A DNA stretch of 64,000 nucleotides from Candidatus Ferrigenium bremense (GTDB lineage: Bacteria; Pseudomonadota; Gammaproteobacteria; Burkholderiales; Gallionellaceae), in NCBI GenBank assembly GCA_019449635.1, contig JAGRPI010000002.1, positions 21,749-85,748 of the forward strand, written 5' to 3'. Within the stretch, counting starts at the first letter, position 1. Each line of letters begins with the position of its first letter. The notes under the pieces were generated by a model. The model had not been told where the DNA came from, ran no database searches, and worked only from the letters and a program-made list of their open reading frames with translations. Made by a program: the position numbers and the translations under genes. Of this stretch, positions 2,001 through 41,457 are shown piece by piece.

Positions 2001-3335
2001 ATCTTCTTTTTTGTTGAACAACATTTATAGGCACAACGTGCTGGTTTTTGGTTAGCGCATCATCGGGGATGGCGTTTCCTACTTCCTTCTTTCACCAAAG
2101 AAAGAGGAAAGCAGGGAGCGTCAACTCCGCCAGATTCCACACGTCAAGGGACGTATGTCCCGGGGTGCCAACCCCAGCTGTTGTTGCTAACAACGGCAAG
2201 CGCTGCTTTGAGCCGTGTGCAGAGAAATTTGCATGCACGGTTCAAGGACGGGGCAGCAGGGTAATCCCGCGCAAGCGGAGTAAACCTGTTGTTCCAGTCC
2301 ATGACTTACATGAAAGATGTAAGGCGTGCGACCAAGAAACGGGGATACGGAGGAAATGCCGTAAACCCTGCTCCATTAGGCAAGGAAGGAAAATCTTGTC
2401 GACGTGTGAATCGTCAACCGTGGGCTGCATGAAAGTGCAGAACGCGAGCCACCTGGGATGGCAGTCTATGCGGAAGAAATTTCTCGCATCGGGCTCATAG
2501 CGAAGTGTTAGAGAGTTCGGAGTACCTGATTGTGAACGTCGTCACGGACGGAAGCATGAAGGACTGGCTGATAGCTTAAACCGGCAAAGCACCTGCAATG
2601 GTGCAATTGGTGGAGTTGCAAAAAAGCCATTGAAAAATGGCCTGGCACTAGGGGTTGAGATACCCCGCTGCTCATCGAAACAGAGTCAATTCCGTAACCT
2701 TACTACTTTACCGCCTTCAGGAGGGTGAAATCGTGGAGATGTGCCGCGAGATAGAGGGTTGATGATCTGGATGATGTCTATGCAACGCAATAAAGATGGA
2801 AGCTAATTGGGGAAATATCAACGTTTTCGCGTGGGGTGGCACTCATGCGGTAGTCGCGTAACGAACGACCGTCAAACGTAGATATGAGAGAGTGGTCCGA
2901 ATAGAGTAAAAAACCGTTGCCCGAAAGGCGCGGTGACCCGGAACATTGGGCGATCGGCTTTGCAGCTGGTCGGAGAGTCTCGAAAGGCTGAGGTAGTGCG
3001 AAACGTGTGGAAAGACCGGGGAACCGGTACTGGTGATGTACTTGAAGGCCGCTTGGCGGCGGCTGGAGAGAGATGTAGCAACCGATGGGATCTTGACGGA
3101 TCCCATCTCAAGAAACACGGCCATTTTTGGCTAATGAATGCCCGTGAGGGTAGGACGAAGCTCGTCCATATTAAGTGGCAGTCACCGTTTAGCTGACTGT
3201 TGTTCTTCAACAAAAAAGAATGCCGTAAGGCAGGATAAGTAATGGGCGCAAGCCCGATAACGCCGGCATAGTCCCGTGCCGGAGAATCGTTCGAGGACAT
3301 AGAAGCCACCTGCAAAGGTGGCTTCTTCTTTTTTA
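2001..3335 (+). ncRNA. Circularly permuted, ORF-less group II intron ribozyme
   Basis: Canonical 34-nt DV at 2210-2243 (GAGCCGTGTGC-AGA-GAAA-TTT-GC-AT-GCACGGTTC; AGC triad). DVI 2246-2300 with bulged A2296 at -7 and terminal AT (2301-2302). Then a 23-nt spacer, then GTGCG at 2326. Many GNRA hairpins follow and a terminator closes the unit at 3301-3334. No DI upstream of DV and no DV downstream of GTGCG. Confidence 0.88.
3301..3334 (+). terminator. Intrinsic terminator of the intron RNA
   Basis: AGAAGCCACCT-GCAA-AGGTGGCTTCT (11-bp stem) followed by TCTTTTTT. Confidence 0.85.
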
Positions 3336-6742: not shown

Positions 6743-7807
6743 TTACCGCGCAGCCTGCATACGCTCAATTCCGGCGTGCAGCTCATCAACTCCGGCGTGA
6801 TAGTACCTGGCCGCCATAGCTGGCGTCTTCCAGCCCATGATCGCCATTAGGGTGAGCATAGGGTAATGTGGCGCCATGCGTGAAGCCGCCTCGTGGCGCG
6901 TGCAGTGAAAGACGCCACCCTCAATGCCGATTTTCTTGCAAGCCGACGTAAAGGCGCGGGAAAGCCCATCAGCGCTTGTTTTGCGAACCGTCTGGAATAC
7001 AAGGGCGCTTGAGTCGAGCGCCTGCGGTAAAGTGCCCAACAATTCCATGGCGCGAGGGGAGAGGGGCACTAAGCGCTTCTTGCGCTGGCCGGATCTGCTG
7101 GATGTGTCTTTTCCCCACACTTCAACGATCCGCCGCGCCTTGTCGAGGTCGCGCCAAGCCATGCGCATCAATTCATCTTCGCGCATGCCGGTTTCGATGG
7201 CGAACTCCGCGATCACGACGTACTGCTTGTTCCGGCACTTCCTCAACTCGTCGGACAGCTTCGGCCAGATATCCGGAGGGATACGCACGTCGCGCGCCTG
7301 GCTGCCACCCGGCTTGCTGATCTTCTTGGTAGGGTTCTCGATGGCGTAACCCCAATCCCGGCGCGCTGACTCAAACACATTCGAGATGGCGATGAGTTCA
7401 TGCTTGATCGTTTGCTCAGCGACCCCACCGCCACGCTTGGATTTATCCTTCCGGCGCTGCGCGATATGGTCTGCAAAGTCCTTCGGCAAACAGCGCGAGA
7501 TCGGCCGGTCGGCGAGTGGATGACGCAACCAGGCCTTGAGGCGCACAATTTCCTGCTTGGCTCCAAGCTTCTTCAAGCTCACCTCATCAATATACCGCTG
7601 GATTAAGTCGCGCAGTGGCGTGGCATCCAGCAAGCGGGTATCATTGTGCTGCGCGCGTTTGAGGTCGGCTTCCAGCGCCTGAGCCCAGTCTTCAGCCTCA
7701 CGCATTGTCGGAAATGATTTTGATTCTCGATGCATTAGTCCGGTCGCACGATTTTTCATCTCGACCTGCGCCCGGTAGCTACTTTTTCGTTTCTGGATCA
7801 TTGCCAT
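6743..7807 (-). CDS. int: Tyrosine recombinase (phage-type integrase)
   Basis: ETGMREDEL (catalytic R), FHCTRHEAAS (HxxR), MGWKTPAMAARYY (W/Y); adjacent to the att site. Confidence 0.95.
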   Translation of the reverse strand: MAMIQKRKSSYRAQVEMKNRATGLMHRESKSFPTMREAEDWAQALEADLKRAQHNDTRLLDATPLRDLIQRYIDEVSLKKLGAKQEIVRLKAWLRHPLADRPISRCLPKDFADHIAQRRKDKSKRGGGVAEQTIKHELIAISNVFESARRDWGYAIENPTKKISKPGGSQARDVRIPPDIWPKLSDELRKCRNKQYVVIAEFAIETGMREDELMRMAWRDLDKARRIVEVWGKDTSSRSGQRKKRLVPLSPRAMELLGTLPQALDSSALVFQTVRKTSADGLSRAFTSACKKIGIEGGVFHCTRHEAASRMAPHYPMLTLMAIMGWKTPAMAARYYHAGVDELHAGIERMQAAR

Positions 7808-7821
7808 GTTTTTTCTACAAC

Positions 7822-7842
7822 CCCGCCAAAAGCCCGCCAAAA
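7822..7842 (+). repeat. Paired 10-bp direct repeats, likely integrase arm-type sites
   Basis: CCCGCCAAAA at 7822-7831 and 7833-7842, between the int start and att. Confidence 0.45.
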
Positions 7843-7898
7843 CTCAACGGAGTTTATTTTAAGTGATTGATAGAAAAAGGGCAAATAAAAAATAAACT

Positions 7899-7961
7899 AC
7901 GGACTTAAAATCCGTCGAGGCTTAACCCCTCGTACCGGTTCGATTCCGGTTCCGGGCACCA
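7899..7961 (+). other. att site: 3' fragment of tRNA-Leu(TAA)
   Basis: ACGGA-CTTAAAA-TCCGT anticodon arm, long variable arm, GGTTCGATTCC T-arm and CCA end; the 5' acceptor strand and D-arm are missing (AT-rich sequence instead). Confidence 0.9.
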
Positions 7962-7997
7962 ACGAAGGCTTTGAGCGGCAGGCCTCCGCCGCTTGCG

Positions 7998-32943: not shown

Positions 32944-33162
32944 CCAACACCTTGGAAGCCGCGCCATTATTGGCATCAATAGAAAATCGAGAGGTGAAAA
33001 CAGCAGAAATTGCCGCATGGAATTTACGCGGACATGCGGACATATCGCGGACATTTGTAAAAAACATGTCCGCGCCTCTGTAAACCGCATCAATTCTAGG
33101 TTTCGAGTAGTCTCAAAGAGCAGTCAGAATAAATTGGCTCATGCGGACATTTACGCGGACAT
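32900..33162. repeat. Cluster of GCGGACAT octamers
   Basis: Copies at 32900, 33028, 33036, 33047, 33143, 33155 and an inverted one at 33066. Confidence 0.7.
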
Positions 33163-33184
33163 CCTGCATTGCTTCGGTGGCTGC

Positions 33185-33754
33185 CTACGCTGCTTTAATT
33201 GCAGCTTCAATCATGCTCAGCTCAATGCGTTGCCCACTGGCTTGAGCGGCTTTATAGAGGTGCAAAATGACGCGCGCCTTACTGGAGGTCGATAGAGTCA
33301 ATTTTTTTGTGTCTAGGACAAACTCAAGTTTCTCAAGTATATCCTCAAAAAGCCTTTGATCCAGTAGCAATACAGGGCTTTTTTTCAGTAATGTCAGGAC
33401 GGCTGCATCAGCACCATCTTTAGCACTTTCACCGTGCTGGAAGGCTTTGATTTCATCGTATGCCAACCTACAGGCCGCCCCTAATTCTTCATCGTAAGCG
33501 GTAAGCTGCAAAAAAACTTGAATTGAGTTCAGTACACTCCACAGGGCTTGCTCTTTAGTAGGCTCCCCCGTCAACACATAGGAAACATCTAGCTCAACGC
33601 TTGCCCAGGCGGCCAACACGGCGGCATTGGGAAATGCTGTCCCTTTCTCCCACGCAATTTGCGAGCCTTTTGATGCCCCAGCAAGAGCGGCAAAAGCAGC
33701 TTGGGTATAGCCAAGCCGCTTGCGTTCTTTATTGATGCGTTCGCCTATGGTCAT
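33185..33754 (-). CDS. XRE-family HTH repressor (c-like)
   Basis: IGERINKERKRLGYTQAAFAALAGASKGSQIAWEKG; divergent from ner. Confidence 0.9.
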   Translation of the reverse strand: MTIGERINKERKRLGYTQAAFAALAGASKGSQIAWEKGTAFPNAAVLAAWASVELDVSYVLTGEPTKEQALWSVLNSIQVFLQLTAYDEELGAACRLAYDEIKAFQHGESAKDGADAAVLTLLKKSPVLLLDQRLFEDILEKLEFVLDTKKLTLSTSSKARVILHLYKAAQASGQRIELSMIEAAIKAA

Positions 33755-33804
33755 TTTTAACAAATGAAAATCATTTGTGATATGTAAAAAACTAAATAAT
33801 ATAT

Positions 33805-33834
33805 TTGCACAGGTTGATTATTCTGAACTATTAT
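33805..33834 (+). promoter_or_regulatory. Candidate early promoter
   Basis: TTGCAC-18 nt-TATTAT upstream of ner. Confidence 0.4.
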
Positions 33835-33873
33835 TCCCGTATTGTCGGGAATGTTACCACTTAAGGAGCCATT

Positions 33874-34077
33874 ATGCGCGAGTTAAAAACCCTTGAACAA
33901 GCCAGGAATGAATTCAATTATCGCGGCGAATCCGTGACCGGATGGGCGCGTAAGCATGGATTCAACCCGGAAAGCGTTAAGAAGGTGCTGCACGGAAAGT
34001 CCAAATGTTTGCGCGGCAACGCCCACAATATCGCCGTTTCGCTGGGTATTAAATATGGCGTGATAGTCGAAAGCTGA
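33874..34077 (+). CDS. Ner-like DNA-binding protein
   Basis: RGESVTGWARKHGF...GNAHNIAVSLGIK; Mu Ner position; AAGGAG RBS. Confidence 0.85.
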   Translation: MRELKTLEQARNEFNYRGESVTGWARKHGFNPESVKKVLHGKSKCLRGNAHNIAVSLGIKYGVIVES

Positions 34078-34081
34078 CACC

Positions 34082-36103
34082 TTGAAATCGTCCGCAAATA
34101 TCTTACTGACCGCAGCCGATGCCGCGCAGCTTTGCAGGCTGTCAGTTCGCCACATACGCCGCCATTGCACAGCCGGAAAATACACCGGCGTAATCAAACA
34201 AACAGACGGCTGGATTATCCCGCTGAACTCCCTGCCAACAGCCGCGCAACTGCAATACATGGACGCGCAGCCTGCCACGGAAGCAAGCACGCCGCTTGCC
34301 GGATTGCCCGTTGTTGCTACAGTCCCCGCCGCCATTGATGCCGACGCGATGCACCTGGCATACCGCCGCGCCCCGAAAAAATCCAAAGCCCGCGCGGATC
34401 GGCTATGCGCCGCCGTGATGGAGTTTGAAGAACTCCGCGCAACGGGCGAAACAAAGAGCAATGCCGAAGCCCACGTTAAGGCCGCATACAATATTTCCCC
34501 GGCGACGCTATGGCGCGCCCGCGACGTGGTGAAAGGATGGTCGCGCGAATTGTGGGCGGCGTTGCTGTTGCCCTGTTACAAAGGCCGTACCAAAGAGGCC
34601 GAATTAACGGGGGATGCGTGGGAATGGATACAAGCCCGCTGGCTTTCCACATCAGAGCCGCCCGCGCACGTTGTCATCAAGGAAGCCAGGAAAGAAGGCA
34701 AAGCGCGCGGCTGGGCGCTTCCATCGGATAAAACCATCATCCGCAAACTCAACGCCATGCCTGCGCCAATTGTCTTGCTGGGGCGCAAGGGCAAAGAGGT
34801 TTTCGACGCGACGTTCCCGGCAGCGGAGCGGGACTTTGCGGCGTACGGCCTGCATGAAGTCTGGGTGTCCGATGGGCGGCGCGTGGACGTATTTTGTCGC
34901 TGGCCGGATGGCACGGTAAGCCGCCCGTTTATCGTGGCATGGTGCGATATGCGCACCCGCAAGGTGCTGGGCACGCGCGGCGGAGTAAATCCATCCGGCA
35001 ATCTCACTCTGGCTTCATTCCATGCAGCCCTGTCGCGCGCAGGTATCAAACCCAAGCGCGCCCTGTTGGACAATGGCCACGAGTATGCCGCAAAGTCTGT
35101 AACGGGCGGGCAGAAGACGCGTTACCGCTTCAAAATAAAAGAGGGTGAACCCATCGGCGCGTTGACGCGCATGGATGTTACAGCGGACTGGGCGCGCCCC
35201 TATCGCGGGCAGGAAAAACCCATTGAATCCTTTTGGAAGTACATTGCCAACCACCTGGATAAACTGCCGGAATTCCAGGGTGCATACTGCGGCAAAAATA
35301 CCGTATCCAAGCCGGAAGACTTGGACAGAGGCAAAGCCATTCCGATTGAGATTTACGCCGCCAAGCTGGCGGAAGTGCTGGAAGAATTCAACCGCCGCCC
35401 ACATCGCGGGCGCGGCATGGACGGAAAATCCCCTGCACAGCTTGATGACGAGTTAATGCAAGCTGATCCGCACAAGGAATGGGCGCGTCCTACCGCCGAA
35501 CACCTGCGCTTGCTATGTCTTGAACAACGAACATTAACCCTCAACAACAAGGATGCCAGTATCAGCTTCAAATTTACCGGTTATGGCGAAGTGCGCTATT
35601 GGTCTGAGGTTTTGGCTGATTTGCCAATGGCTGCACGCTCCAAAAAATACGCCGTATTCCACAACCCGGAAGATCCAGACATTCCCGTTGTAATCTATGA
35701 CGGGGAGCGCATGGTATGCGAAGCAGCGCGTATTGGTGCGGTTGGTAGCAAGCAAGCCGCCGCACAGCACTGCATCAACAAAGCAGGATTCAAAAAACCA
35801 CGTGCAGCCGCCTTCAAAACAATCAGGCAAGCAGCACCAATTACATTGCCCACGCCCGCCGCGCCGCTGTCTATCCAGTCCGTCACCATCGAAAAACCTG
35901 CCACCCCGGTAATGCCATCCGAGCCGCCCAAACTAAAGGAATTATCGCCCGGTGTGTGGTATGACCCCGAACAGGGAAAAACTATTGGCAAGGGCAAATC
36001 TGCCAAGCCAACCAGCCAACTGGACGATGAATCAATCGAAAAATACCGGCGCATTAAGGAAGCGCGCGAAAGCGAACGCATGAAGCGTTTCGGTACGGCA
36101 TAA
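34082..36103 (+). CDS. MuA-like DDE transposase
   Basis: N-terminal HTH; WVSDG (D), LLDNGHEY (D), EKPIES (E); C-terminal FNRRPHRG. Confidence 0.92.
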   Translation: MKSSANILLTAADAAQLCRLSVRHIRRHCTAGKYTGVIKQTDGWIIPLNSLPTAAQLQYMDAQPATEASTPLAGLPVVATVPAAIDADAMHLAYRRAPKKSKARADRLCAAVMEFEELRATGETKSNAEAHVKAAYNISPATLWRARDVVKGWSRELWAALLLPCYKGRTKEAELTGDAWEWIQARWLSTSEPPAHVVIKEARKEGKARGWALPSDKTIIRKLNAMPAPIVLLGRKGKEVFDATFPAAERDFAAYGLHEVWVSDGRRVDVFCRWPDGTVSRPFIVAWCDMRTRKVLGTRGGVNPSGNLTLASFHAALSRAGIKPKRALLDNGHEYAAKSVTGGQKTRYRFKIKEGEPIGALTRMDVTADWARPYRGQEKPIESFWKYIANHLDKLPEFQGAYCGKNTVSKPEDLDRGKAIPIEIYAAKLAEVLEEFNRRPHRGRGMDGKSPAQLDDELMQADPHKEWARPTAEHLRLLCLEQRTLTLNNKDASISFKFTGYGEVRYWSEVLADLPMAARSKKYAVFHNPEDPDIPVVIYDGERMVCEAARIGAVGSKQAAAQHCINKAGFKKPRAAAFKTIRQAAPITLPTPAAPLSIQSVTIEKPATPVMPSEPPKLKELSPGVWYDPEQGKTIGKGKSAKPTSQLDDESIEKYRRIKEARESERMKRFGTA

Positions 36104-36121
36104 ACCAACGAAAGGAACGCT

Positions 36122-37159
36122 ATGCAAGATACTGAAACGAAAGACGTGTATGGTGAATACAAAAAACGCTGGAAACAGCTCACCGACCGTGTTGCCGACG
36201 AATTGGCGCAAGGCTTCACGCTGAACAGAATCGTTATCGAAGCGGAGTTACATCTGATTGGCGGTGGCGGATCATGTGCCCTGGATCGCCTACGCGCCTG
36301 GTTAGAAAGCCCAAATGCATTGCGCGGCGAAAGCCGCTACGTCGGGCAATTAAGCGTAGCCGACGAAATGGAGAAAAAACTGTCCGCGTGGTTTGAACAA
36401 TTGGATATTGAGCGTGCTGCCGCCAAAACCACCGCCCCCGCCTTTATCGAAACCGCAGTATCGCGCAAGATATGGAGCAGCTTCGAGCAAGCGCGCGAGT
36501 TGTGCGAACTCATGGAAATATCTGCTCCGCCAGGCACAGGCAAAACACATGCAATTCAGCCCTATCTAGCCCAATGCCGCAAGCGTGAGGGCTTTGGCTG
36601 TCCGGTATGGCACATCACCTTGAGCGAGTTTTCTGTATCGCTCAAAAGCGTGTTGCAACTCATCACCGCCGAAGTGCAGCCGGATCATGCCAGCAGCGGG
36701 CGCGAGGACAAGGACTTTTCCAGCGTGCGCATGATCGAAGAGCACACGGAAGGGCGTGGTGGTCTGTTGATCGTGGACGAAGCGCAGCATATCGGCGATG
36801 CCGACAAACTGCACGGCATCCGCATCCTTAACGGCTTGCGCTACTTCACTGATCGCAAGCTGTTCGGCATCGCCTTCCTGAGCAACGGCGAAATATACCG
36901 CCGCGTAGCAGGCGGTAAACATGGGCAGCTATCCAGCCGCATGGAAGCCTCGCGCGTGGAAATCAAAGGTGTGCCGGATGAAGATGTAGATTTAATCATG
37001 GCCGCGCACTGCATCGGCGGCAAACCAGCGCGCGAATGGTGCCTAAAAAAGGCCAAAGGGGCAGGGGGCTTGCGCGCCCTGACGCGCGCATTCAGCCATG
37101 CCCGGCGCGAATTCGGCGAAGTGAATCACCAAACCTTGACCATGCTGGGAAGGCTGTAA
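36122..37159 (+). CDS. MuB-like AAA+ transposition ATPase
   Basis: Walker A APPGTGKT, Walker B LLIVDEAQH; follows the transposase. Confidence 0.92.
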   Translation: MQDTETKDVYGEYKKRWKQLTDRVADELAQGFTLNRIVIEAELHLIGGGGSCALDRLRAWLESPNALRGESRYVGQLSVADEMEKKLSAWFEQLDIERAAAKTTAPAFIETAVSRKIWSSFEQARELCELMEISAPPGTGKTHAIQPYLAQCRKREGFGCPVWHITLSEFSVSLKSVLQLITAEVQPDHASSGREDKDFSSVRMIEEHTEGRGGLLIVDEAQHIGDADKLHGIRILNGLRYFTDRKLFGIAFLSNGEIYRRVAGGKHGQLSSRMEASRVEIKGVPDEDVDLIMAAHCIGGKPAREWCLKKAKGAGGLRALTRAFSHARREFGEVNHQTLTMLGRL

Positions 37160-37161
37160 CC

Positions 37162-37599
37162 ATGCCCGCCGCGCGCCGTGCCACACTATCCGCCACCTGC
37201 ATCAAGCAAGTCCAGATTGCACGGAAGCGGCTGGATATGAGCGATGCAGATTACCGCGCCTTGTTGCAGCGCGTGGCGGGTGTGTCTTCATCCACCGAAC
37301 TGACACCGGCGGGCTTCGCACTGGTCATGGACGAATTCGCCAGGCTGGGGTTTATCTCTACTGCCCGCCATGAAGCCGCCATGCAGGAAAGCCGCGCGCC
37401 GTGGGCGGCAAGCTACGCGCAGCGCAGCAGGATCGCCGCCATGTGGGACGCGTGGAAAGGCAAGCATGACCCGGATGGTTTGCGCCGCTGGCTGGAACAC
37501 CATCACGGCGTATCTGATGTGCGCTTTTGTTCGGCGGAAAAGGCCAGCAAGATTATCGGCGCACTATCGGGATTCAAGAAAAAACCGGAAACGAATTAG
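37162..37599 (+). CDS. gemA: GemA (Mu gp16)-like protein
   Basis: IKQVQIARKRLDMSDADYRALL...SSTELT...VMDEFARLGF signature. Confidence 0.85.
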   Translation: MPAARRATLSATCIKQVQIARKRLDMSDADYRALLQRVAGVSSSTELTPAGFALVMDEFARLGFISTARHEAAMQESRAPWAASYAQRSRIAAMWDAWKGKHDPDGLRRWLEHHHGVSDVRFCSAEKASKIIGALSGFKKKPETN

Positions 37600-37609
37600 C
37601 TTGAAAAAA

Positions 37610-37687
37610 GGGCGGCGGCGGGACTCGAACCGCGCATAATTCGCTGCTTTCGCAGTGTAGCCATTACCTATCGGCGGACAGCCACCC
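37610..37687 (-). ncRNA. tRNA-like fold 1 (non-canonical)
   Basis: Minus strand: GGGTGGC/GCCGCCC acceptor-like stem, D-like arm GCCG-ATAGGTAA-TGGC, CTGC-GAAA-GCAG in place of an anticodon arm, GGTTCGAGTCC T-loop; a T6 tract follows; no CCA. Confidence 0.55.
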
Positions 37688-38044
37688 AATCGGAACTATA
37701 AGCACGGTTGCCATGACGCGCAACCCACGACCGCTTAAAACGCGATTTAAGCCGTTAAACTTTTTCAGTGGCATCCAGCCATTGCCGCGTCACCGTGCGC
37801 GGCTTCGTAGTGCCTTGCGGTGGTGCTTGCGTCGATATTTAAAAGCGGGAAAGGGTGGGGTTTTGCAACTTTGCCGGAGAATTGGCGGGTGGGGTGTGTA
37901 GCTGCGGGAGTTGATGCTGCGCTTTCACGCCCCCCAACCTAAAACGTCCGAAACGTAACCGCATCTGCTACACGCTGGCAGTATGGCGCAATGCTGCGTT
38001 TACTGCAATTGGTGGGGCTGCGCCTGGTAGCCTTTCATTGATTA

Positions 38045-38128
38045 TTCAAGGCAGCGAGCGGATTCGAACCGCCTCACACAGACCGGAATCTGCCCCGTCA
38101 ACCAGTATTTCGGGTTCTCTGCCTTGAA
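38045..38128 (-). ncRNA. tRNA-like fold 2 (non-canonical)
   Basis: Minus strand: 10-bp TTCAAGGCAG/CTGCCTTGAA closing stem, GGCGG-TTCGAAT-CCGCT T-arm, two internal arms, no 7-nt anticodon loop. Confidence 0.55.
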
Positions 38129-38204
38129 AGTGACCATAACATAGGCTGCCCATCGGAAGCAATCTTACCTTCCGGCCTCTGCTGGTGGCGCACAAAAAAA
38201 CCGC

Positions 38205-38233
38205 TTGATATTTCTCCCGCTAATCCGCAGAAT
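38205..38233 (+). promoter_or_regulatory. Candidate promoter of the C4-controlled operon
   Basis: TTGATA-17 nt-CAGAAT. Confidence 0.45.
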
Positions 38234-38344
38234 GCCAACCGTCACGCAAAACTCGTGATGCGAGTTTAGTAGCTCGGAGTTCAAGGCGGACAACCGCCCC
38301 CAGTGCGGTTTTTTTACGTCCGTAAGCATGGCAGGCCAAGTTTT

Positions 38345-38415
38345 GGCGGGCTGTGCGGGGCATCTTCGGATGCGCCGGTTCCTTGACCCGGTCTACTAAC
38401 CTGCACAGTTCCGCC
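38345..38415 (+). ncRNA. C4-type antisense RNA (P1/P7 c4-like)
   Basis: Three-way fold GGCGGGCTGTGCGGG/CCTGCACAGTTCCGCC, GCATC-TTCG-GATGC and CCGG-loop-CCGG. Unpaired TCCTTGA and CTACTAA match target pairs upstream (38264-38286) and downstream (38421-38461). Confidence 0.8.
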
Positions 38416-38469
38416 TCCTCGTTTAGTAGCGGGGGAGCGGGAAATTCAAACCGTTCAAGGAGAATTACC

Positions 38470-38754
38470 ATGACTCAAGCCACACTAGGCGCAACCGCGC
38501 CCGTTCTGATTCACCCCCAAACCCAAACCCTCGCGCATCACAACATCGCGCAATATCGCGCCATTAAGTTTGTATCTGACCGCATCGCGGAAGCGGACGC
38601 ATCGCAATGGCATGGCGGCTATATCCACGGCCTGATTCAAGCCCTGACCATGACAAGCACGATCACCGTTGAACAGGCCAGCAAGCTGGAGCAGGCGCAA
38701 GAACAAGCATCCTGCAAAACCTTCAACCGCCGCGCGGCAGGGGGTGCAGCATGA
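38470..38754 (+). CDS. Hypothetical protein (94 aa), first gene under C4 control
   Basis: AAGGAG RBS overlapped by the C4 target TCAAGGA; ATGA overlap with the next gene. Confidence 0.7.
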   Translation: MTQATLGATAPVLIHPQTQTLAHHNIAQYRAIKFVSDRIAEADASQWHGGYIHGLIQALTMTSTITVEQASKLEQAQEQASCKTFNRRAAGGAA

Positions 38755-39377
38755 ACGCCAAAACCACCTTGCCGCCAGACTGGAAGCCCGCCGCCTTTAA
38801 CCCAAACTTCAACGCGACTGACGAATTCGAAGAACAGCAATACCAGCTTGACCGCTTGCGTTGTGTGCTCAATGTTTTGTCTGATCTAGCCAGCGCCAGC
38901 GGAGATGATTGCCAGCGCGCCACCGTACAACTACGCCGCGAAGATTTGGCGGGCGTTTTCCTGTTGTTGCGTGATACGGTTGCGGTCACGGCGGAACGGA
39001 ATGAGTTGACGCACAAGCATGTATGCAATCTCTGGGGCTGGGAAAAAATGCAGGCCGAACGCGAATTGAACAATGTAGCAGCAGCGGCCAATGAACGCCG
39101 CAGCGATGGCGAGGAAAACCGCATCAGGCCGACCATGCTGGCGCAGATCATCACGGCAATTAGCGGGCAGCGCCCGATTTTGGGAAGTGACATGAACCGT
39201 ATAACCCAACGGCTTCGCGATTGCGCCGAGGCAGACGAGGATATGCAACCCGCTTCTGCCGCTTGGGAAGCGTTTGTCACGGCTGAAGGCGGGCCGGCGA
39301 TTACCACGTGTGAAGGTTTCTATATCAAATACTATCCGGTGCGTGGGGAAGTTGTCGGACAAACAGACGAAGCCTGA
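38751..39377 (+). CDS. Hypothetical protein (208 aa)
   Basis: Translationally coupled ORF followed by a terminator. Confidence 0.7.
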   Translation: MNAKTTLPPDWKPAAFNPNFNATDEFEEQQYQLDRLRCVLNVLSDLASASGDDCQRATVQLRREDLAGVFLLLRDTVAVTAERNELTHKHVCNLWGWEKMQAERELNNVAAAANERRSDGEENRIRPTMLAQIITAISGQRPILGSDMNRITQRLRDCAEADEDMQPASAAWEAFVTAEGGPAITTCEGFYIKYYPVRGEVVGQTDEA

Positions 39378-39401
39378 CCACGCTGCCCACAACCACACTA
39401 C

Positions 39402-39429
39402 AGCCCCCCGCAAGGGGGCTTTCTCTTTT
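39402..39429 (+). terminator. Intrinsic terminator
   Basis: AGCCCCC-CGCAA-GGGGGCT then TTCTCTTTT. Confidence 0.8.
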
Positions 39430-39628
39430 GACGGGTTGACAATGATTTTCGCCTGACGAAACCAGCAGAGCAGGGCGGCCATAAGTGGGCGAGAAAAGGT
39501 AAGCGCCCGACCGCCCCATGCGCACTATGCCAAGGCATGGAGTCTGCATCTATAGGAACCCGTTCCGGCTTATCCCCCCGCCTTCAGGCGGATACAGTTC
39601 CGCCATAAACTTGAGCAAGGGGTAGAGG

Positions 39629-40018
39629 ATGCGCAGTTTTGTTTTATCGCGGGCACAGGCGGCCAATTATCCGGGGGTGTTTCAAGAGGCCGTGCAGCTT
39701 ATCGGGGAAGAGGCGGCGGCCAAGCTGGTAGTGCAATACGGCGGTGTGCGCCTGTATATCCCGCACACAGCTAAGCCTAACCATACCTTGTGTCAATTGC
39801 TGGGGCAGGAAATCGCGCAGCAGTTGTGTGGTGAATTCGCTGGCCTGACTTTAGATATTCCGCGCGGCTACATATTGCAGGTCGCGCTGCGCAACAAGCT
39901 GGTTATGGCGGATCGCGCGGCGGGTATGTCACAGCGTGAACTGGCGCTCAAACACCACCTGACCGAAAGAACTATCCGCAAAATCGTTAACCGTTCCAGC
40001 AGCACAAACCACCTCTAG
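39629..40018 (+). CDS. mor: Mor/C-family transcription activator
   Basis: YGGVRLYIP, RNKLVMAD...GMSQRELALKHHLTERTIRKIV. Confidence 0.88.
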   Translation: MRSFVLSRAQAANYPGVFQEAVQLIGEEAAAKLVVQYGGVRLYIPHTAKPNHTLCQLLGQEIAQQLCGEFAGLTLDIPRGYILQVALRNKLVMADRAAGMSQRELALKHHLTERTIRKIVNRSSSTNHL

Positions 40019-40031
40019 AAAAGGAAAAATC

Positions 40032-40658
40032 ATGGCTCTTACCCAGCAGGAAATGGACACATTCAACCAGGTAAAAAACATCGTTGCCGCACTGCAAGCT
40101 GAATATGCGGACGTGTGCGCAAACATTGAAGCCACCGAAAAGCAGCTTGCGGAACTGCCGCTGTTACCGGTGCCTGTTGCCGACTTAAAGGCCGCCATAC
40201 TCGACTTTGTAGATGCTCGCGGCCAAGATTATTTGGGCGAATTCGTAAAGAGCTCCATTAAGGATTTTGCGACTAACGCGATGGGTGGATCGAGTGTTTC
40301 CGCAAATCTGATGGGGTCACCTCTCAGATTCAAAGAATTGGAGAGTGCGTGTTCAGGCAATAACGGCGCCATATCTAACGCCCAACTGATAACGCAGTTT
40401 GGGAAAGGGCAGTTTAACGACCTGGCTTTGTATGCGTTTTTTGGGGATATGGTGAAGGCCGGGTTGAACAATGTCATGGCTACCATGACGGATGAGGATT
40501 TCGGTTATGCCAAGTTAACGCCGGAGCAGATCGGCACGGATCGCGCAACCCGCCGCCTCGCTATTCAAGCCGCGCAAGATCAACTGGCCGCGTTGCGCGA
40601 AAGTAAAGCAACCCTTGCAAGCAGTCTGCGGCAGTTGGGCATAACGGTTAATGGGTAA
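40032..40658 (+). CDS. Hypothetical helical/coiled-coil protein (208 aa)
   Basis: AAAGGA RBS; heptad-like N- and C-terminal helices; overlaps the protease start. Confidence 0.75.
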   Translation: MALTQQEMDTFNQVKNIVAALQAEYADVCANIEATEKQLAELPLLPVPVADLKAAILDFVDARGQDYLGEFVKSSIKDFATNAMGGSSVSANLMGSPLRFKELESACSGNNGAISNAQLITQFGKGQFNDLALYAFFGDMVKAGLNNVMATMTDEDFGYAKLTPEQIGTDRATRRLAIQAAQDQLAALRESKATLASSLRQLGITVNG

Positions 40659-41262
40659 AGTCATGAGCGCGCTGGCAGCTTGTACTGCGTCCCCATTGGC
40701 TGGGGCGGAAAAAACTATCCGCCTGATTCCGGCAGGCCTGTTTCGTACTACCGATGGCCGCCCGGCTGGCTTGCCAGGCTGGACACTGACCGCGAGCAAC
40801 GCGGCGGCGATTATCAAAGCCGCCGCATCGAGGGCGGATGATTTTCTGATCGACTACGAACACCAGACCTTACACGCCAGCAAAAGCGGACAACCCGCCC
40901 CGGCTGCGGGCTGGTTTAAACGGCTGGAATGGCGCGAAGGGCAGGGATTGTTTGCGGTAGACGTGCGCTGGACTGCGCGCGCCTCGGCAATGATTATTGC
41001 CCGCGAATACCGCTACATTTCGCCTGTGTTCGGCTTTGACGCAAAAACAGGTGAGGTACAAAGCCTGCGTGCCGCCGCTATTACCAATGATCCGGCATTA
41101 GACGGCCTGACAGATATTGCAGCGGCCAAGCGGCAAGCAAGTGACGTTACGCAACGTAGTAGCATGTCCGAATACAACCGCCCCATGACCCAACACGAGC
41201 GCGACCACGCAAACAGAGTTCTGCGCCATTGTTTTGGCGATGCCGCCACATTCATCAAGTAA
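40651..41262 (+). CDS. Mu-like prohead protease I domain, short (203 aa)
   Basis: LIDYEHQT, APAAGW, VRWTARA, EYRYISPVF, AITNDPALDGL; lacks the long scaffold-containing C-terminal half typical of Mu I. Confidence 0.88.
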   Translation: MGKVMSALAACTASPLAGAEKTIRLIPAGLFRTTDGRPAGLPGWTLTASNAAAIIKAAASRADDFLIDYEHQTLHASKSGQPAPAAGWFKRLEWREGQGLFAVDVRWTARASAMIIAREYRYISPVFGFDAKTGEVQSLRAAAITNDPALDGLTDIAAAKRQASDVTQRSSMSEYNRPMTQHERDHANRVLRHCFGDAATFIK

Positions 41263-41457
41263 CCAAGCACAAAGAATGAGGGGGATGGCGTTTGCAAGCT
41301 TCCATGCTTTCACTTGCAGACTTCTCCGCCCTTCAGGGCAAAGCAACCGGGGCGAGAAGTGCGCCATAGCCCAGGATGCGCCCGCAACATGGCACACATG
41401 GGCAACCTGTTTTAACCGACGCCGACCGCAAGCCCCGGCTGCGCAACAGGTAAAGCA

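What the first reader, a model, noticed from the sequence alone, without database searches (positions are those of the whole stretch)
37604..38162. Antisense ~520-nt structured RNA bracketed by two tRNA-like folds inside the mini-Mu
Seen: no credible ORF over ~550 nt. On the minus strand, two cloverleaf-like units (38128-38045, 37687-37610) each have a correct T-loop (GGTTCGAATCC, GGTTCGAGTCC) and closing stem but no 7-nt anticodon loop or CCA; one has a GAAA tetraloop instead. A candidate promoter (TTGCTT-18 nt-TATGGT with extended TG) points at the first fold and a T6 tract follows the second. The middle has further stems (GCCGCG/CGCGGC, GTGTAGC/GCTACAC with TGCGG/CCGCA, GCAGTA/TACTGC, GCTTAAA/TTTAAGC). 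Known: RNase P/RNase Z recognise the T-arm/acceptor elbow, and P4 CI RNA is matured by RNase P. Inference: tRNA mimics used as processing signals to release a ~355-nt RNA, or decoys for tRNA-targeting defences. I do not recognise this family.
Basis: partly seen in the sequence, partly recalled or inferred. Interest (0 to 1): 0.76.

Follow-up and report, generated by a model that had tools for sequence, protein, structure and literature searches.

The report
Phage tRNA-mimic small-RNA gene array
A defective Mu-type prophage carries three separate small RNA genes, two tRNA look-alikes that cannot decode and one new junction-shaped RNA. All belong to undescribed phage RNA families that in other phages sit directly behind a virion RNase-domain gene, which suggests they act as RNA decoys or antidotes.

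Summary
Homologues show a head-to-tail array of three small-RNA cassettes on the minus strand, between gemA and a divergent isrK/C4 immunity module of an ~8-kb mini-Mu.

- **U1 (38128-38045):** a tRNA-like RNA.
- **Core (37973-37895):** a 79-nt RNA of five helices. Eight of its 26 pairs show compensatory changes.
- **UC (37687-37610, then T6):** a second tRNA-like RNA.

Each cassette has its own -10 box 6-9 nt upstream. Number, order and type of cassettes differ between related loci.

Both RNA kinds belong to families absent from Rfam 15. In 80 Mu-like viral contigs they occur singly and antisense. Their 3' ends abut the stop codon of the MuF head-protein gene. tRNA-like RNAs accompany one MuF C-terminal domain cluster, weakly matching MuF_C/PBECR. 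Core RNAs, including circularly permuted forms, accompany PBECR3.

The tRNA-like RNAs keep a covarying acceptor stem and a canonical T arm, but carry a capped hairpin in place of an anticodon loop.

Best reading (inferred): protein-binding mimics or pseudo-substrates for BECR-fold RNases. Here they would be retained as an orphan "immunity RNA" array.

No strand-resolved expression data were available.

The parts
38133..38162 (-). Putative sigma-70 promoter of tRNA-like RNA U1. It reads -35 TTGCTT (38162-38157), an 18-nt spacer, then TG-extended -10 TATGGT (38138-38133).
   Evidence: Read. The -10 box ends 9 nt before the CM start and 4-6 nt before the extended stem. The promoter is not in the simple scanner's output, which lists only sites matching at least 9 of 12 consensus positions. 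Function is inferred.
38045..38128 (-). tRNA-like small RNA U1. It has a 10-bp closing (extended acceptor) stem, a D-like arm CCCG/CGGG with a GG-containing loop, a 5-bp arm with the 6-nt loop UUCCGG, and the canonical T arm GGCGG-UUCGAAU-CCGCU. It has no 7-nt anticodon loop and no CCA.
   Evidence: Searches give the fold. The R2 covariance model, built without it, scores it 22.8 bits, E = 1.5e-3, at 38123-38050. Rfam gives only tRNA-Sec at 18.6 bits. In other metagenomes the unit is nearly invariant while its flanks diverge.
37980..38008 (-). Putative promoter of the core RNA. It reads -35 TTGCAG (38008-38003), a 17-nt spacer, then -10 CATACT (37985-37980), 6 nt before G1 of the core.
   Evidence: A -10 hexamer (TATACT, CATACT, TAGACT or TATAAT) sits 6-8 nt upstream of the core in all 9 homologous loci. 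Several of these carry an extended TG.
37895..37973 (-). The 79-nt 'core' RNA. P1 is GUGUAGC/GCUACAC and P2 is UGCGG/CCGCA, together enclosing a three-way junction. P3 is the hairpin CGUUUCGGACG. P4 is GGUUG/CAACU. P5 is the GNRA-capped hairpin GCGU-GAAA-GCGC. P4 and P5 are separated by the conserved internal loop GGGG / AGCAU.
   Evidence: Alignment A3 of 9 loci has 26 pairs, 8 with compensatory changes and 97.9% of cells paired. None of 500 shuffles reaches this, and slid controls give at most 45%. The R1 model scores it 97 bits. Divergent and circularly permuted relatives lie behind MuF-PBECR3 genes. There is no Rfam match.
37701..37894 (-). Spacer between the core and UC. It holds a C-rich tail (CCCCACCC...), a small hairpin GCC-N8-GGC, the hairpin GCCGCG-N-CGCGGC (37803-37784) and the A/U palindrome GCTTAAA-N-TTTAAGC (37752-37733). 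It is probably a read-through or processing region, together with the remnant of a plus-strand terminator of the early operon.
   Evidence: The spacer is conserved at sequence level in L009, L010, L011 and L004, without compensatory changes. In L009 and L010 the GC hairpin is followed by T5 on the plus strand. The spacer is skipped or replaced in other metagenome variants.
37695..37723 (-). Putative promoter of tRNA-like RNA UC. It reads -35 TTGCGC (37723-37718), a 17-nt spacer, then -10 TATAGT (37700-37695), 7 nt before G1.
   Evidence: The equivalent TATACT, TACACT or TATAGT box lies 6-7 nt upstream in L001, L003, L010 and L011.
37610..37687 (-). tRNA-like small RNA UC. It has a 7-bp acceptor GGGUGGC/GCCGCCC, U8, the motif GGUAAUGG, the hairpin CUGC-GAAA-GCAG in place of the anticodon arm, and a T arm with loop UUCGAGU. 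It has no CCA.
   Evidence: The R2 model, built without it, scores it 30.2 bits, E = 1.4e-5, whereas the window's genuine tRNAs do not reach E = 10. The near-identical copy in L010 carries pair-preserving substitutions.
37604..37609 (-). A T6 tract directly after the closing stem of UC. It is the only terminator-like signal for the minus-strand array and lies 5 nt from the gemA stop codon (37599).
   Evidence: L010 has T5 at the same place. U-runs also follow the closing stem in L013 and in the permuted core RNAs.

Best explanation
The region is an array of three independent small-RNA gene cassettes on the minus strand of a defective, chromosomally fixed mini-Mu. Each cassette is a host-type promoter followed by a compact, stem-closed RNA.

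Two cassettes encode tRNA-shape mimics. They have an acceptor-like stem extended to 9-10 bp, a canonical T arm, a D-like element and a capped hairpin where the anticodon arm should be. They cannot decode.

The third cassette encodes a 79-nt junction RNA. Its conserved parts are the P3 hairpin and the GGGG/AGCAU internal loop.

The cassettes are mobile 'moron'-like units of Mu-like phages. Their other home is the position immediately behind, and antisense to, the MuF head-protein gene. There the RNA type tracks the type of MuF's C-terminal BECR-fold (PBECR/MuF-C) RNase domain.

I infer that the RNAs work as folded protein ligands, not as base-pairing regulators. Most likely they are pseudo-substrates or inhibitors ('RNA immunity') for these virion-borne RNase domains. 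In this element, which has lost MuF, the array would then be the RNA counterpart of an orphan immunity-gene cluster, protecting the cell from RNases injected by related phages.

Transcripts probably start at each -10 box and also read through to the single T6. tRNA-processing enzymes could separate the modules.

Shown: the structures, covariation, modularity, promoter-box placement, genomic association and absence from Rfam. Inferred: expression, processing, binding partner and biological role.
For: Structure and strand:
- Core: 26 pairs, 8 compensatory, 0 of 500 shuffles reach the observed value.
- tRNA-like family: 25 pairs, 7 compensatory, 97.2% of cells paired, 0 of 500 shuffles.
- G·U pairs make up 13-17% of cells, so the minus strand is the RNA strand.

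Independence of the cassettes:
- A -10-like hexamer lies 6-11 nt upstream in 33 of 39 distinct loci, a six-fold positional enrichment.
- Cassette content differs between related loci: core only (L002, L004, L009); B-core-A-C' (L001); A-core-B-C' (L003); paralogue-core-C' (L011); core-UC (L010); two tRNA-likes and no core (L106).
- Other metagenome variants skip or swap modules.

Family membership:
- R2 scores UC at 30.2 bits and U1 at 22.8 bits, while genuine tRNAs in the window do not hit.

Association with MuF:
- All 13 motif-found viral contigs have the tRNA-like RNA behind MuF and before gpG.
- In 80 MuF loci there are 20 R2 and 8 R1 hits, all on the antisense strand. In 26 of these 28 the RNA's 3' end lies within -20 to +18 nt of the MuF stop.
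- RNA type follows the C-terminal domain cluster, [[20,1],[0,7]], Fisher p = 6.8e-6. None of the 23 loci with other or no C-terminal domain has a detectable RNA.
- Cluster 2 is PBECR3, above the gathering score in L087 and L095. Cluster 1 gives only weak MuF_C, PBECR2 or PBECR3 matches.
- PBECR and MuF-C are predicted BECR-fold RNases or RNA binders packaged in virions (PMC5512222).
- Another MuF-BECR fusion family carries a protein immunity candidate in the same downstream slot (bioRxiv 10.64898/2026.08.28.747851).

Ligand-type behaviour:
- The core exists in circularly permuted form, with the same junction and conserved blocks.
- Conserved single-stranded stretches are only 4-5 nt long.

Retention:
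- The mini-Mu sits behind the same GH57 and GH77 genes in the window and in a Gallionella MAG, which argues for vertical inheritance.
- The window holds no MuF.
Against: - No strand-resolved or end-mapped RNA data exist. Metatranscriptome contigs cover the whole locus at depths similar to the neighbouring genes, and DNA carry-over cannot be excluded.
- The RNA-to-domain correlation could reflect physical linkage alone. Adjacent sequences are inherited together, and the 80 loci were seeded with MuFs that already had tRNA-like neighbours.
- Within cluster 1, the subfamily without C'-type RNAs carries several different RNA types or none. One-to-one cognate pairing is therefore not clean.
- Cluster 1's assignment to the BECR fold rests on sub-threshold Pfam hits.
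- In the window and its closest relatives the RNAs lie in the early/immunity region, far from any MuF.
- The promoters score poorly against the sigma-70 consensus.
- No RNA inhibitor of a BECR-fold RNase is known.
Confidence: 0.4

Rival explanations
1. The RNAs are anti-defence decoys against host tRNA-directed nucleases or modifiers. They offer the tRNA elbow and acceptor without an anticodon and so soak up host defence enzymes. On this view the MuF-G slot and the gemA-C4 gap are simply hot spots for accessory cargo.
For: The RNAs keep a canonical T arm, U8 and a covarying acceptor stem, but not a cleavable anticodon loop. They have their own constitutive-type promoters. Their accessory, mosaic distribution resembles that of anti-defence genes, and L006 has a HEPN ORF in the adjacent G-I slot. 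Phage tRNAs are known to counter tRNA-cleaving defences (bioRxiv 10.1101/2023.03.15.532788, listed).
Against: The idea does not explain why the non-tRNA-like core RNA occupies the same slots, or why RNA type tracks the MuF C-terminal domain type. Known anticodon nucleases need the anticodon loop, which these RNAs lack. No defence gene is consistently nearby.
Confidence: 0.2
2. One long minus-strand primary transcript (~530 nt from the U1 promoter to T6) is produced, and its tRNA-like ends are only RNase P / RNase Z processing signals that release an internal functional RNA.
For: The only terminator-like signal on the minus strand is the T6 after UC. In L001 and L003 a tRNA-like unit follows the core after 4 and 2 nt, with no room for a promoter, so processing must separate them there. 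Known precedents are RNase P substrates such as P1 C4 RNA and MALAT1/mascRNA (from my own knowledge).
Against: Each module has its own conserved -10 box. tRNA-like RNAs occur alone behind MuF with nothing to release. The core occurs without any tRNA-like unit in L002, L004, L006 and L009. The D-like and T elements are invariant across distant phages, which is more conservation than a cleavage signal needs. The 541-nt fold is no more stable than shuffles. The ~200-nt spacer shows no covariation.
Confidence: 0.15
3. The RNAs are Y-RNA-like molecules. They act as tRNA-mimic scaffolds that tether a Ro60/Rsr-type protein or another RNA-surveillance factor, as D. radiodurans Yrn1 does.
For: They share the overall design of Yrn1: a long stem formed by the 5' and 3' ends on the acceptor side, a T arm, a partial D arm, and an 'anticodon' arm with a 6-nt loop (U1). 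Y RNAs also have conserved D and T elements, lack a free CCA, and are known in phages (PMC4201824).
Against: No TROVE/Rsr gene was found among the neighbours scanned. I could not find the GNCGAAN0-1G motif in the closing stems by eye. The YrlA topology is permuted relative to these RNAs. There is no Rfam hit.
Confidence: 0.08
4. The RNAs are base-pairing regulators of the lysis-lysogeny switch. On this view the core is a second C4-like antisense RNA acting on the divergent isrK/C4-ant operon or on gemA and MuF mRNAs.
For: The core is divergently paired with a bona fide C4 RNA in 8 of 9 loci. It shares the C4 layout of a closing stem that encloses two hairpins.
Against: The core occurs without C4 behind MuF. 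It tolerates circular permutation. Conserved unpaired stretches are only 4-5 nt. Where terminators exist, they stop transcription before the convergent gene. The Rfam C4 and isrK models do not match it. Duplex searches gave only diffuse, non-conserved pairings.
Confidence: 0.1
5. The units are decayed ordinary phage tRNA genes with no present function.
For: One related unit (L003 5303-5377) is called tRNA-Val(AAC) by ARAGORN. The T arms are canonical.
Against: Compensatory changes maintain the acceptor stem and the non-anticodon arm across 13-15 sequences. The D-like and T regions are invariant in phages from many samples. The gene position and promoter box are conserved. The L003 'anticodon loop' has C33 and U37, and the loop is 5 nt in the L001 orthologue.
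Confidence: 0.02

Closest known systems
Bacterial Y RNAs (D. radiodurans Yrn1; YrlA of Salmonella, Mycobacterium and phages)
   Same: They are small non-coding tRNA mimics with a canonical T arm, a partial D arm and no free CCA. D and T nucleotides are conserved as a presumed protein-contact surface. Yrn1 has its ends on the acceptor side and a 6-nt 'anticodon' loop, like U1 (PMC4201824).
   Different: Y RNAs are defined by Ro60 binding and by being encoded next to rsr, and no TROVE gene was seen here. The Ro-binding motif is absent. YrlA has a permuted topology. The RNAs here are tied to Mu-like phages and to MuF.
Toxin-immunity organisation of MuF-BECR fusions (MuF-BECR-Tox3/DUF6883 with downstream DUF4926), and polymorphic-toxin orphan immunity clusters
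   Same: Both have a variable C-terminal BECR-fold RNase domain on MuF, and a small gene in the slot immediately downstream whose type tracks the domain type. An array of different protective genes kept without the toxin resembles an orphan immunity cluster.
   Different: Here the downstream gene is an antisense-oriented non-coding RNA gene, not a protein gene. Neutralisation has not been tested.
Type III toxin-antitoxin systems (ToxIN and similar)
   Same: In both, a structured RNA would bind and neutralise an endoribonuclease encoded next to it. This comparison is from my own knowledge.
   Different: ToxI-type antitoxins are tandem repeats cut by their own toxin and co-transcribed with it, and the toxins do not have a BECR fold. 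Here the genes are single, stem-closed, antisense to the RNase gene and have their own promoters.
RNase P-processed phage immunity RNAs (P1/P7 C4, P4 CI) and MALAT1/mascRNA-type tRNA-like punctuation
   Same: Both use an acceptor/T-stem-like coaxial helix, and tRNA-like units could set RNA ends. C4 itself is the divergent neighbour. In L001 and L003 a tRNA-like unit abuts the core.
   Different: The core does not match the C4 or isrK models. The tRNA-like RNAs also occur alone and are conserved far beyond what a cleavage signal requires.
Candidate structured RNAs catalogued from IMG/VR (PMC10690425) and Rfam phage motifs such as Mu-gpT-DE
   Same: These too are comparative-genomics RNA candidates in phage genomes. 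That catalogue reports 'tRNA or tRNA-like' candidates of unknown function.
   Different: No Rfam 15 family matches. I could not check whether the 10,006-candidate catalogue contains these families, because its supplements are not held.

Membership tests
tRNA (Rfam RF00005 / ARAGORN) | Cloverleaf with a 5-bp anticodon stem and a 7-nt loop (U33, purine 37). | tested here: not met
   U1 has the 6-nt loop UUCCGG and UC has a GAAA tetraloop.
tRNA (Rfam RF00005 / ARAGORN) | Detection by tRNA gene finders or by the covariance model at its threshold. | tested here: not met
   ARAGORN finds no tRNA here. The best Rfam clan hit is tRNA-Sec at 18.6 and 16.6 bits against a gathering score of 47.
tRNA (Rfam RF00005 / ARAGORN) | T arm with the loop UUCRANY and a G53-C61 pair, plus a 7-bp acceptor stem adjoining it. 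| tested here: met
   The motif count is 5 against 0.08 expected.
tmRNA | tRNA-like domain together with a tag reading frame and pseudoknots, with an alanine identity pair G3:U70. | tested here: not met
   ARAGORN and Rfam find no tmRNA of any type. Pair 3:70 is G-C in all 15 sequences.
Y RNA / YrlA | Encoded next to a Ro60/Rsr (TROVE) gene and bound by that protein. | tested here: not met
   No TROVE domain appears among the neighbours scanned in the window or in L006, L009, L012-L016, L105 and L106. Binding cannot be tested here.
Y RNA / YrlA | Ro-binding helix motif (GNCGAAN0-1G) in the terminal stem. | tested here: not met
   The motif was not found by inspecting the closing stems. It is taken from PMC4201824.
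C4 / isrK antisense RNAs (Rfam RF01695, RF01394) | Match to the family covariance model. | tested here: not met
   The models hit the plus-strand neighbours (C4 at 61.9 bits, isrK-like at 39.4 bits) but nothing at 37895-37973 on the minus strand, even at E ≤ 10.
Mu-like-phage tRNA-like RNA family (defined here; model R2) | Significant score with a covariance model built without the window's sequences. | tested here: met
   UC scores 30.2 bits, E = 1.4e-5. U1 scores 22.8 bits, E = 1.5e-3, which is borderline. The window's genuine tRNA-His, tRNA-Arg and tRNA-Pro do not reach E = 10.
Mu-like-phage tRNA-like RNA family (defined here; model R2) | Invariant D-like segment UGUUUCCAAUGGGAAUGGUUG and T arm AUGAUCCGGUUCGAAUCCGGC. 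| tested here: not met
   UC keeps only UG...GGUAAUGG and GGUUCGAGUCC, and U1 keeps less. Both are divergent subtypes, not core members.
Core junction RNA family (defined here; model R1) | P2-P5 architecture with the P3 hairpin CGUUYCGGACG and the GGGG/AGCAU internal loop. | tested here: met
   The window copy scores 97 bits, but it was part of the seed alignment. Independent relatives score 31-53 bits behind MuF, and permuted forms align after rotation.
Type III toxin-antitoxin RNA antitoxin | Tandem direct repeats next to, and co-transcribed with, the endoribonuclease gene. | tested here: not met
   The modules are single, non-repeated and antisense to the RNase-domain gene. The window contains no MuF or PBECR gene.

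The most novel reading that the evidence does not exclude
Mu-like phages encode cognate 'immunity RNAs' for the BECR-fold RNase domains carried on their MuF head protein. These would be tRNA-shaped pseudo-substrates for one domain type and a permutable junction RNA for PBECR3. Bacteria or defective prophages would then keep arrays of such RNA genes as orphan immunity against RNases injected by incoming phages. This would be the first RNA inhibitor class for BECR-fold toxins, and the first RNA-based analogue of polymorphic-toxin immunity islands.
Probability: 0.3. Interest if true: 0.92.

Novelty: new variant of a known kind. Interest (0 to 1): 0.8.

Why it matters
- **New RNA families.** The finding adds at least two well-supported structured RNA families, a non-decoding tRNA mimic and a junction RNA that also exists in circularly permuted form. 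Neither is in Rfam 15, and both are widespread in Mu-like phages.
- **A handle on MuF-C/PBECR.** The target and regulation of this virion domain are an open question. Each RNA sits in the slot where related MuF-BECR fusions keep a candidate protein immunity gene.
- **If the link is functional.** It would show RNA-based neutralisation of a major toxin fold. It would also explain why a chromosomally fixed mini-Mu keeps these genes.
- **Annotation.** T-loop-bearing 'pseudo-tRNAs' in prophages can be selected genes in their own right.

Tried and rejected
- BLAST of the 701-nt region found nothing in phage GenBank records, PLSDB plasmids or E. coli genomes.
- Whole-region folding gave no support for a single large RNA on the minus strand.
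- RNA duplex searches of the core against the divergent transcript gave long, gapped, non-conserved pairings. I dropped them as uninformative.
- Metatranscriptome contigs (X2, X3, X5) cover the locus but carry no strand information. They break at strain-variation bubbles, so they say nothing about RNA ends.
- A GemA-based scan of viral contigs found no relatives.
- The core pattern gave three chance hits, L005, L007 and L008, which I discarded.
- A D-arm pattern from U1 found nothing in viral contigs.
- PHROGs did not name the ORFs downstream of C4.
- A PDB profile search with the cluster-1 MuF C-terminal domain gave no meaningful hit.
- Structure prediction of that domain was not possible under the tool's input rules.
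- The plus-strand 62-aa ORF (37713-37901) was considered and rejected, because its frame is not conserved.
- tmRNA, including the two-piece form, was considered and rejected.
Full report
**Context.** The finding lies in a ~640-bp gene-free gap of a Mu-like element. On the plus strand the order is:
- a repressor-like HTH gene (33185-33763, minus strand);
- MuA transposase (34082-36103);
- MuB (36122-37159);
- GemA (37036-37599);
- the gap;
- an isrK-like RNA (38242-38315, 39.4 bits, below the gathering score) and a bona fide C4 antisense RNA (38339-38421, 61.9 bits);
- two unnamed ORFs;
- Mor (39629-40018);
- a truncated Mu protease I fragment.

Host genes flank the element. GH57 and GH77 glycogen genes lie upstream, and a hybrid histidine kinase lies downstream. 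A Gallionella MAG has the same short element behind the same two genes (L105). This is therefore an ~8-kb mini-Mu fixed at one chromosomal site in Gallionellaceae. It has no MuF or other head genes.

**Checking the observation.** All listed features are present.
- The T-loop motif GGTTCGANTCC occurs five times in the window against 0.08 expected.
- ARAGORN and Rfam call nothing here at threshold. Only tRNA-Sec hits of 18.6 and 16.6 bits mark the two units.
- The 541-nt minus strand as a whole is no more stable than shuffled sequence (z = +0.95).

**Homologues.**
- Pattern scans added L006 from IMG/VR and L009-L011 from metagenomes.
- The block is a 77-80-nt RNA with five helices. It has 26 pairs, of which 8 carry compensatory changes, and 97.9% of cells are paired. 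None of 500 shuffles reaches the observed values, and structures slid by 1-3 columns pair in at most 45% of cells.
- G·U pairs are frequent, so the RNA is on the minus strand.
- A covariance model (R1) finds exactly one strong copy per locus, plus a weak paralogue in L011.

**The units are separate genes.**
- Every module is preceded by a -10-like hexamer 6-11 nt upstream of its first paired base. This holds in 33 of 39 distinct loci, a six-fold enrichment over other offsets.
- In the window these boxes are TATGGT (TG-extended), CATACT and TATAGT.
- Cassette content differs from locus to locus: core alone, core plus one to three tRNA-like units in different orders, or two tRNA-like units without a core.
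- Contigs from other metagenomes skip or swap modules.
- In L001 and L003 a tRNA-like unit follows the core after only 4 and 2 nt, so some modules must be co-transcribed and then cut apart.
- In the window the only terminator-like signal on this strand is the T6 after the last unit, so read-through precursors are likely as well.

**The tRNA-like RNAs are a conserved family.** A 21-nt motif from the L001/L003/L011 version found 13 further viral contigs. The alignment folds as a cloverleaf with these features:
- a 7-bp acceptor stem, 100% paired, with three pairs showing double changes, usually extended by 2-3 bp;
- an invariant D-like hairpin GUUUCC-AAU-GGGAAU followed by GG;
- an 8-bp central arm with an internal mismatch and a freely varying cap (GNRA, UUCG and others), four of whose pairs carry compensatory changes;
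- an invariant T arm CCGG-UUCGAAU-CCGG.

No copy encodes CCA. A model built without the window's copies (R2) scores UC at 30.2 bits (E = 1.4e-5) and U1 at 22.8 bits (E = 1.5e-3). It ignores the window's real tRNA-His, tRNA-Arg and tRNA-Pro. UC and U1 are thus divergent members of a superfamily of non-decoding tRNA mimics, not decayed tRNAs. Neither family matches anything in Rfam 15.

**A second genomic home.** In all 13 viral contigs the tRNA-like gene lies antisense, directly behind the stop codon of a MuF-like head-protein gene and before gpG. L006 has the core RNA in exactly that slot, behind a MuF-PBECR3 fusion. I then fetched 80 MuF loci and searched them with both models.
- There were 20 tRNA-like and 8 core hits, all antisense. 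In 26 of the 28, the RNA's 3' end lies within -20 to +18 nt of the MuF stop.
- Clustering the last 140 residues of MuF gives two main C-terminal domain types.
- Cluster 1 has 38 loci, with 20 tRNA-like and 1 core RNA. It gives only weak MuF_C, PBECR2 or PBECR3 matches.
- Cluster 2 has 17 loci, with no tRNA-like and 7 core RNAs. It is PBECR3, above the gathering score in L087 and L095.
- The 23 loci with other or no C-terminal domains have no detectable RNA.
- Fisher p is 6.8e-6, but adjacent sequences are co-inherited, so this is not independent evidence of interaction.
- Inspection of the unscored cluster-2 loci showed a circular permutation of the core. The ends are moved to P5, and P1/P2 is closed by a loop.
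- The permuted forms keep the same P3 hairpin, P4 helix, G-run and AGCAU. Their own alignment has 13 of 26 pairs with compensatory changes, and after rotation they align colinearly with the window's core.
- Other cluster-1 loci carry further RNA types in the same slot.

**Interpretation.** PBECR and MuF-C are BECR-fold domains (the fold of barnase, EndoU, colicins E5 and D, and RelE). They are predicted to be virion-packaged RNases or RNA binders whose target is unknown (PMC5512222). PBECR3 groups with the colicin-like tRNases, and another MuF-BECR fusion family keeps a candidate protein immunity gene in the same downstream slot (bioRxiv 10.64898/2026.08.28.747851).

The following features fit folded protein ligands better than antisense regulators:
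- compact, stem-closed RNAs with their own host-type promoters;
- invariant loop and elbow elements beside freely covarying stems;
- tolerance of circular permutation;
- terminators, where present, that stop before the convergent gene.

My best reading is that these RNAs are pseudo-substrates or inhibitors of MuF-borne RNase domains. The window's three-cassette array, kept in an element without MuF, would then be an RNA analogue of an orphan immunity cluster. This step is inference and no binding or expression data exist. The main rivals are decoys for host tRNA-directed defences, processing punctuation for a long precursor, Y-RNA-like scaffolds and C4-like regulators. They are weighed in the Rival explanations section of this report.

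**Limits.**
- Transcription is shown only by unstranded metatranscriptome contigs, at depths similar to the neighbouring genes.
- The promoters are weak by consensus, and their function rests on positional conservation.
- U1 has no divergent homologues in hand, so its own structure is supported by model score and by conservation relative to its flanks, not by covariation.
- The set of 80 MuF loci was seeded from MuFs that already had RNA neighbours, so 28 of 80 is not a prevalence estimate.

Noticed in passing
window 38205-38470 (+): This is an immI-like module. It comprises a promoter (TTGATA-17-CAGAAT), an isrK-like RNA with its terminator (38242-38315), a C4 RNA (38339-38421) and a leader. 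In the leader, GUUUAGUAG and UUCAAGGAG (the ribosome-binding site of the ORF starting near 38470) are complementary to C4 loop sequences, as in P1 c4-icd-ant. The two downstream ORFs have no Pfam or PHROG match.
   Followed up: partly
window 7897-7963 (+), next to 6743-7840 (-): A 3' fragment of a tRNA-Leu(UAA) gene lies here, with its anticodon arm, long variable arm, T arm and acceptor 3' strand ending in CCA. It sits beside a tyrosine-integrase ORF, so it is probably an attachment-site remnant of another integrated element. A glycogen phosphorylase gene follows.
   Followed up: partly
window 2208-2302 (+): Rfam reports a group II intron catalytic-domain hit here (52.9 bits).
   Followed up: no
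window 33100-41300; L105 3578-11130: The mini-Mu has a repressor, A, B, GemA, Mor and a few small ORFs, but no structural genes. It sits behind the same GH57 and GH77 genes in the window and in a Gallionella MAG. In L105 an inovirus-like region (Zot, coat B, Rep) follows it. It could be a domesticated remnant or a satellite-like element.
   Followed up: partly
L087, L088, L090, L092, L093, L097, L102 (about 2650-2760, minus strand): These loci carry a circularly permuted version of the core RNA behind MuF-PBECR3, with its own TAAAAT-type -10 box and a U-run after the closing stem.
   Followed up: yes
L066, L070, L071, L074; L073, L078; L049, L060; L028, L077, L081 (downstream of MuF, minus strand): Further promoter-led structured RNA types occupy the same MuF-gpG slot. 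One has GAGCUGUGGAAAU...CAUGGAUGGAGGGAC...CCUCCC, another has GAGGCGUAGAAA...CUACGC, and a third is a second tRNA-like type with GGUUCGAYYCC. Some share sub-motifs, which suggests a modular set of RNA types.
   Followed up: no
L064 2775-2852 and 2867-2939 (-); L106 8580-8657 and 8855-8931 (-): Two tRNA-like RNA genes lie in tandem in one slot. In L064 this is behind MuF, and in L106 it is in the gemA-C4 gap.
   Followed up: partly
L006 1782-2774 (-): A HEPN-domain ORF lies between gpG and protease I, the slot known for accessory genes in Mu-like phages. It is adjacent to the core RNA gene.
   Followed up: no
L003 5303-5377 (-): ARAGORN calls one tRNA-like unit tRNA-Val(AAC). Its loop has C33 and U37, and the orthologous unit in L001 has a 5-nt loop, so the call is probably a false positive of the same mimic class.
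   Followed up: partly
window 37713-37901 (+): A 62-aa arginine-rich ORF runs antisense to the spacer and part of the core. Its N-terminus is shared with L010, but the frame is broken in L009 and absent in L011.
   Followed up: partly
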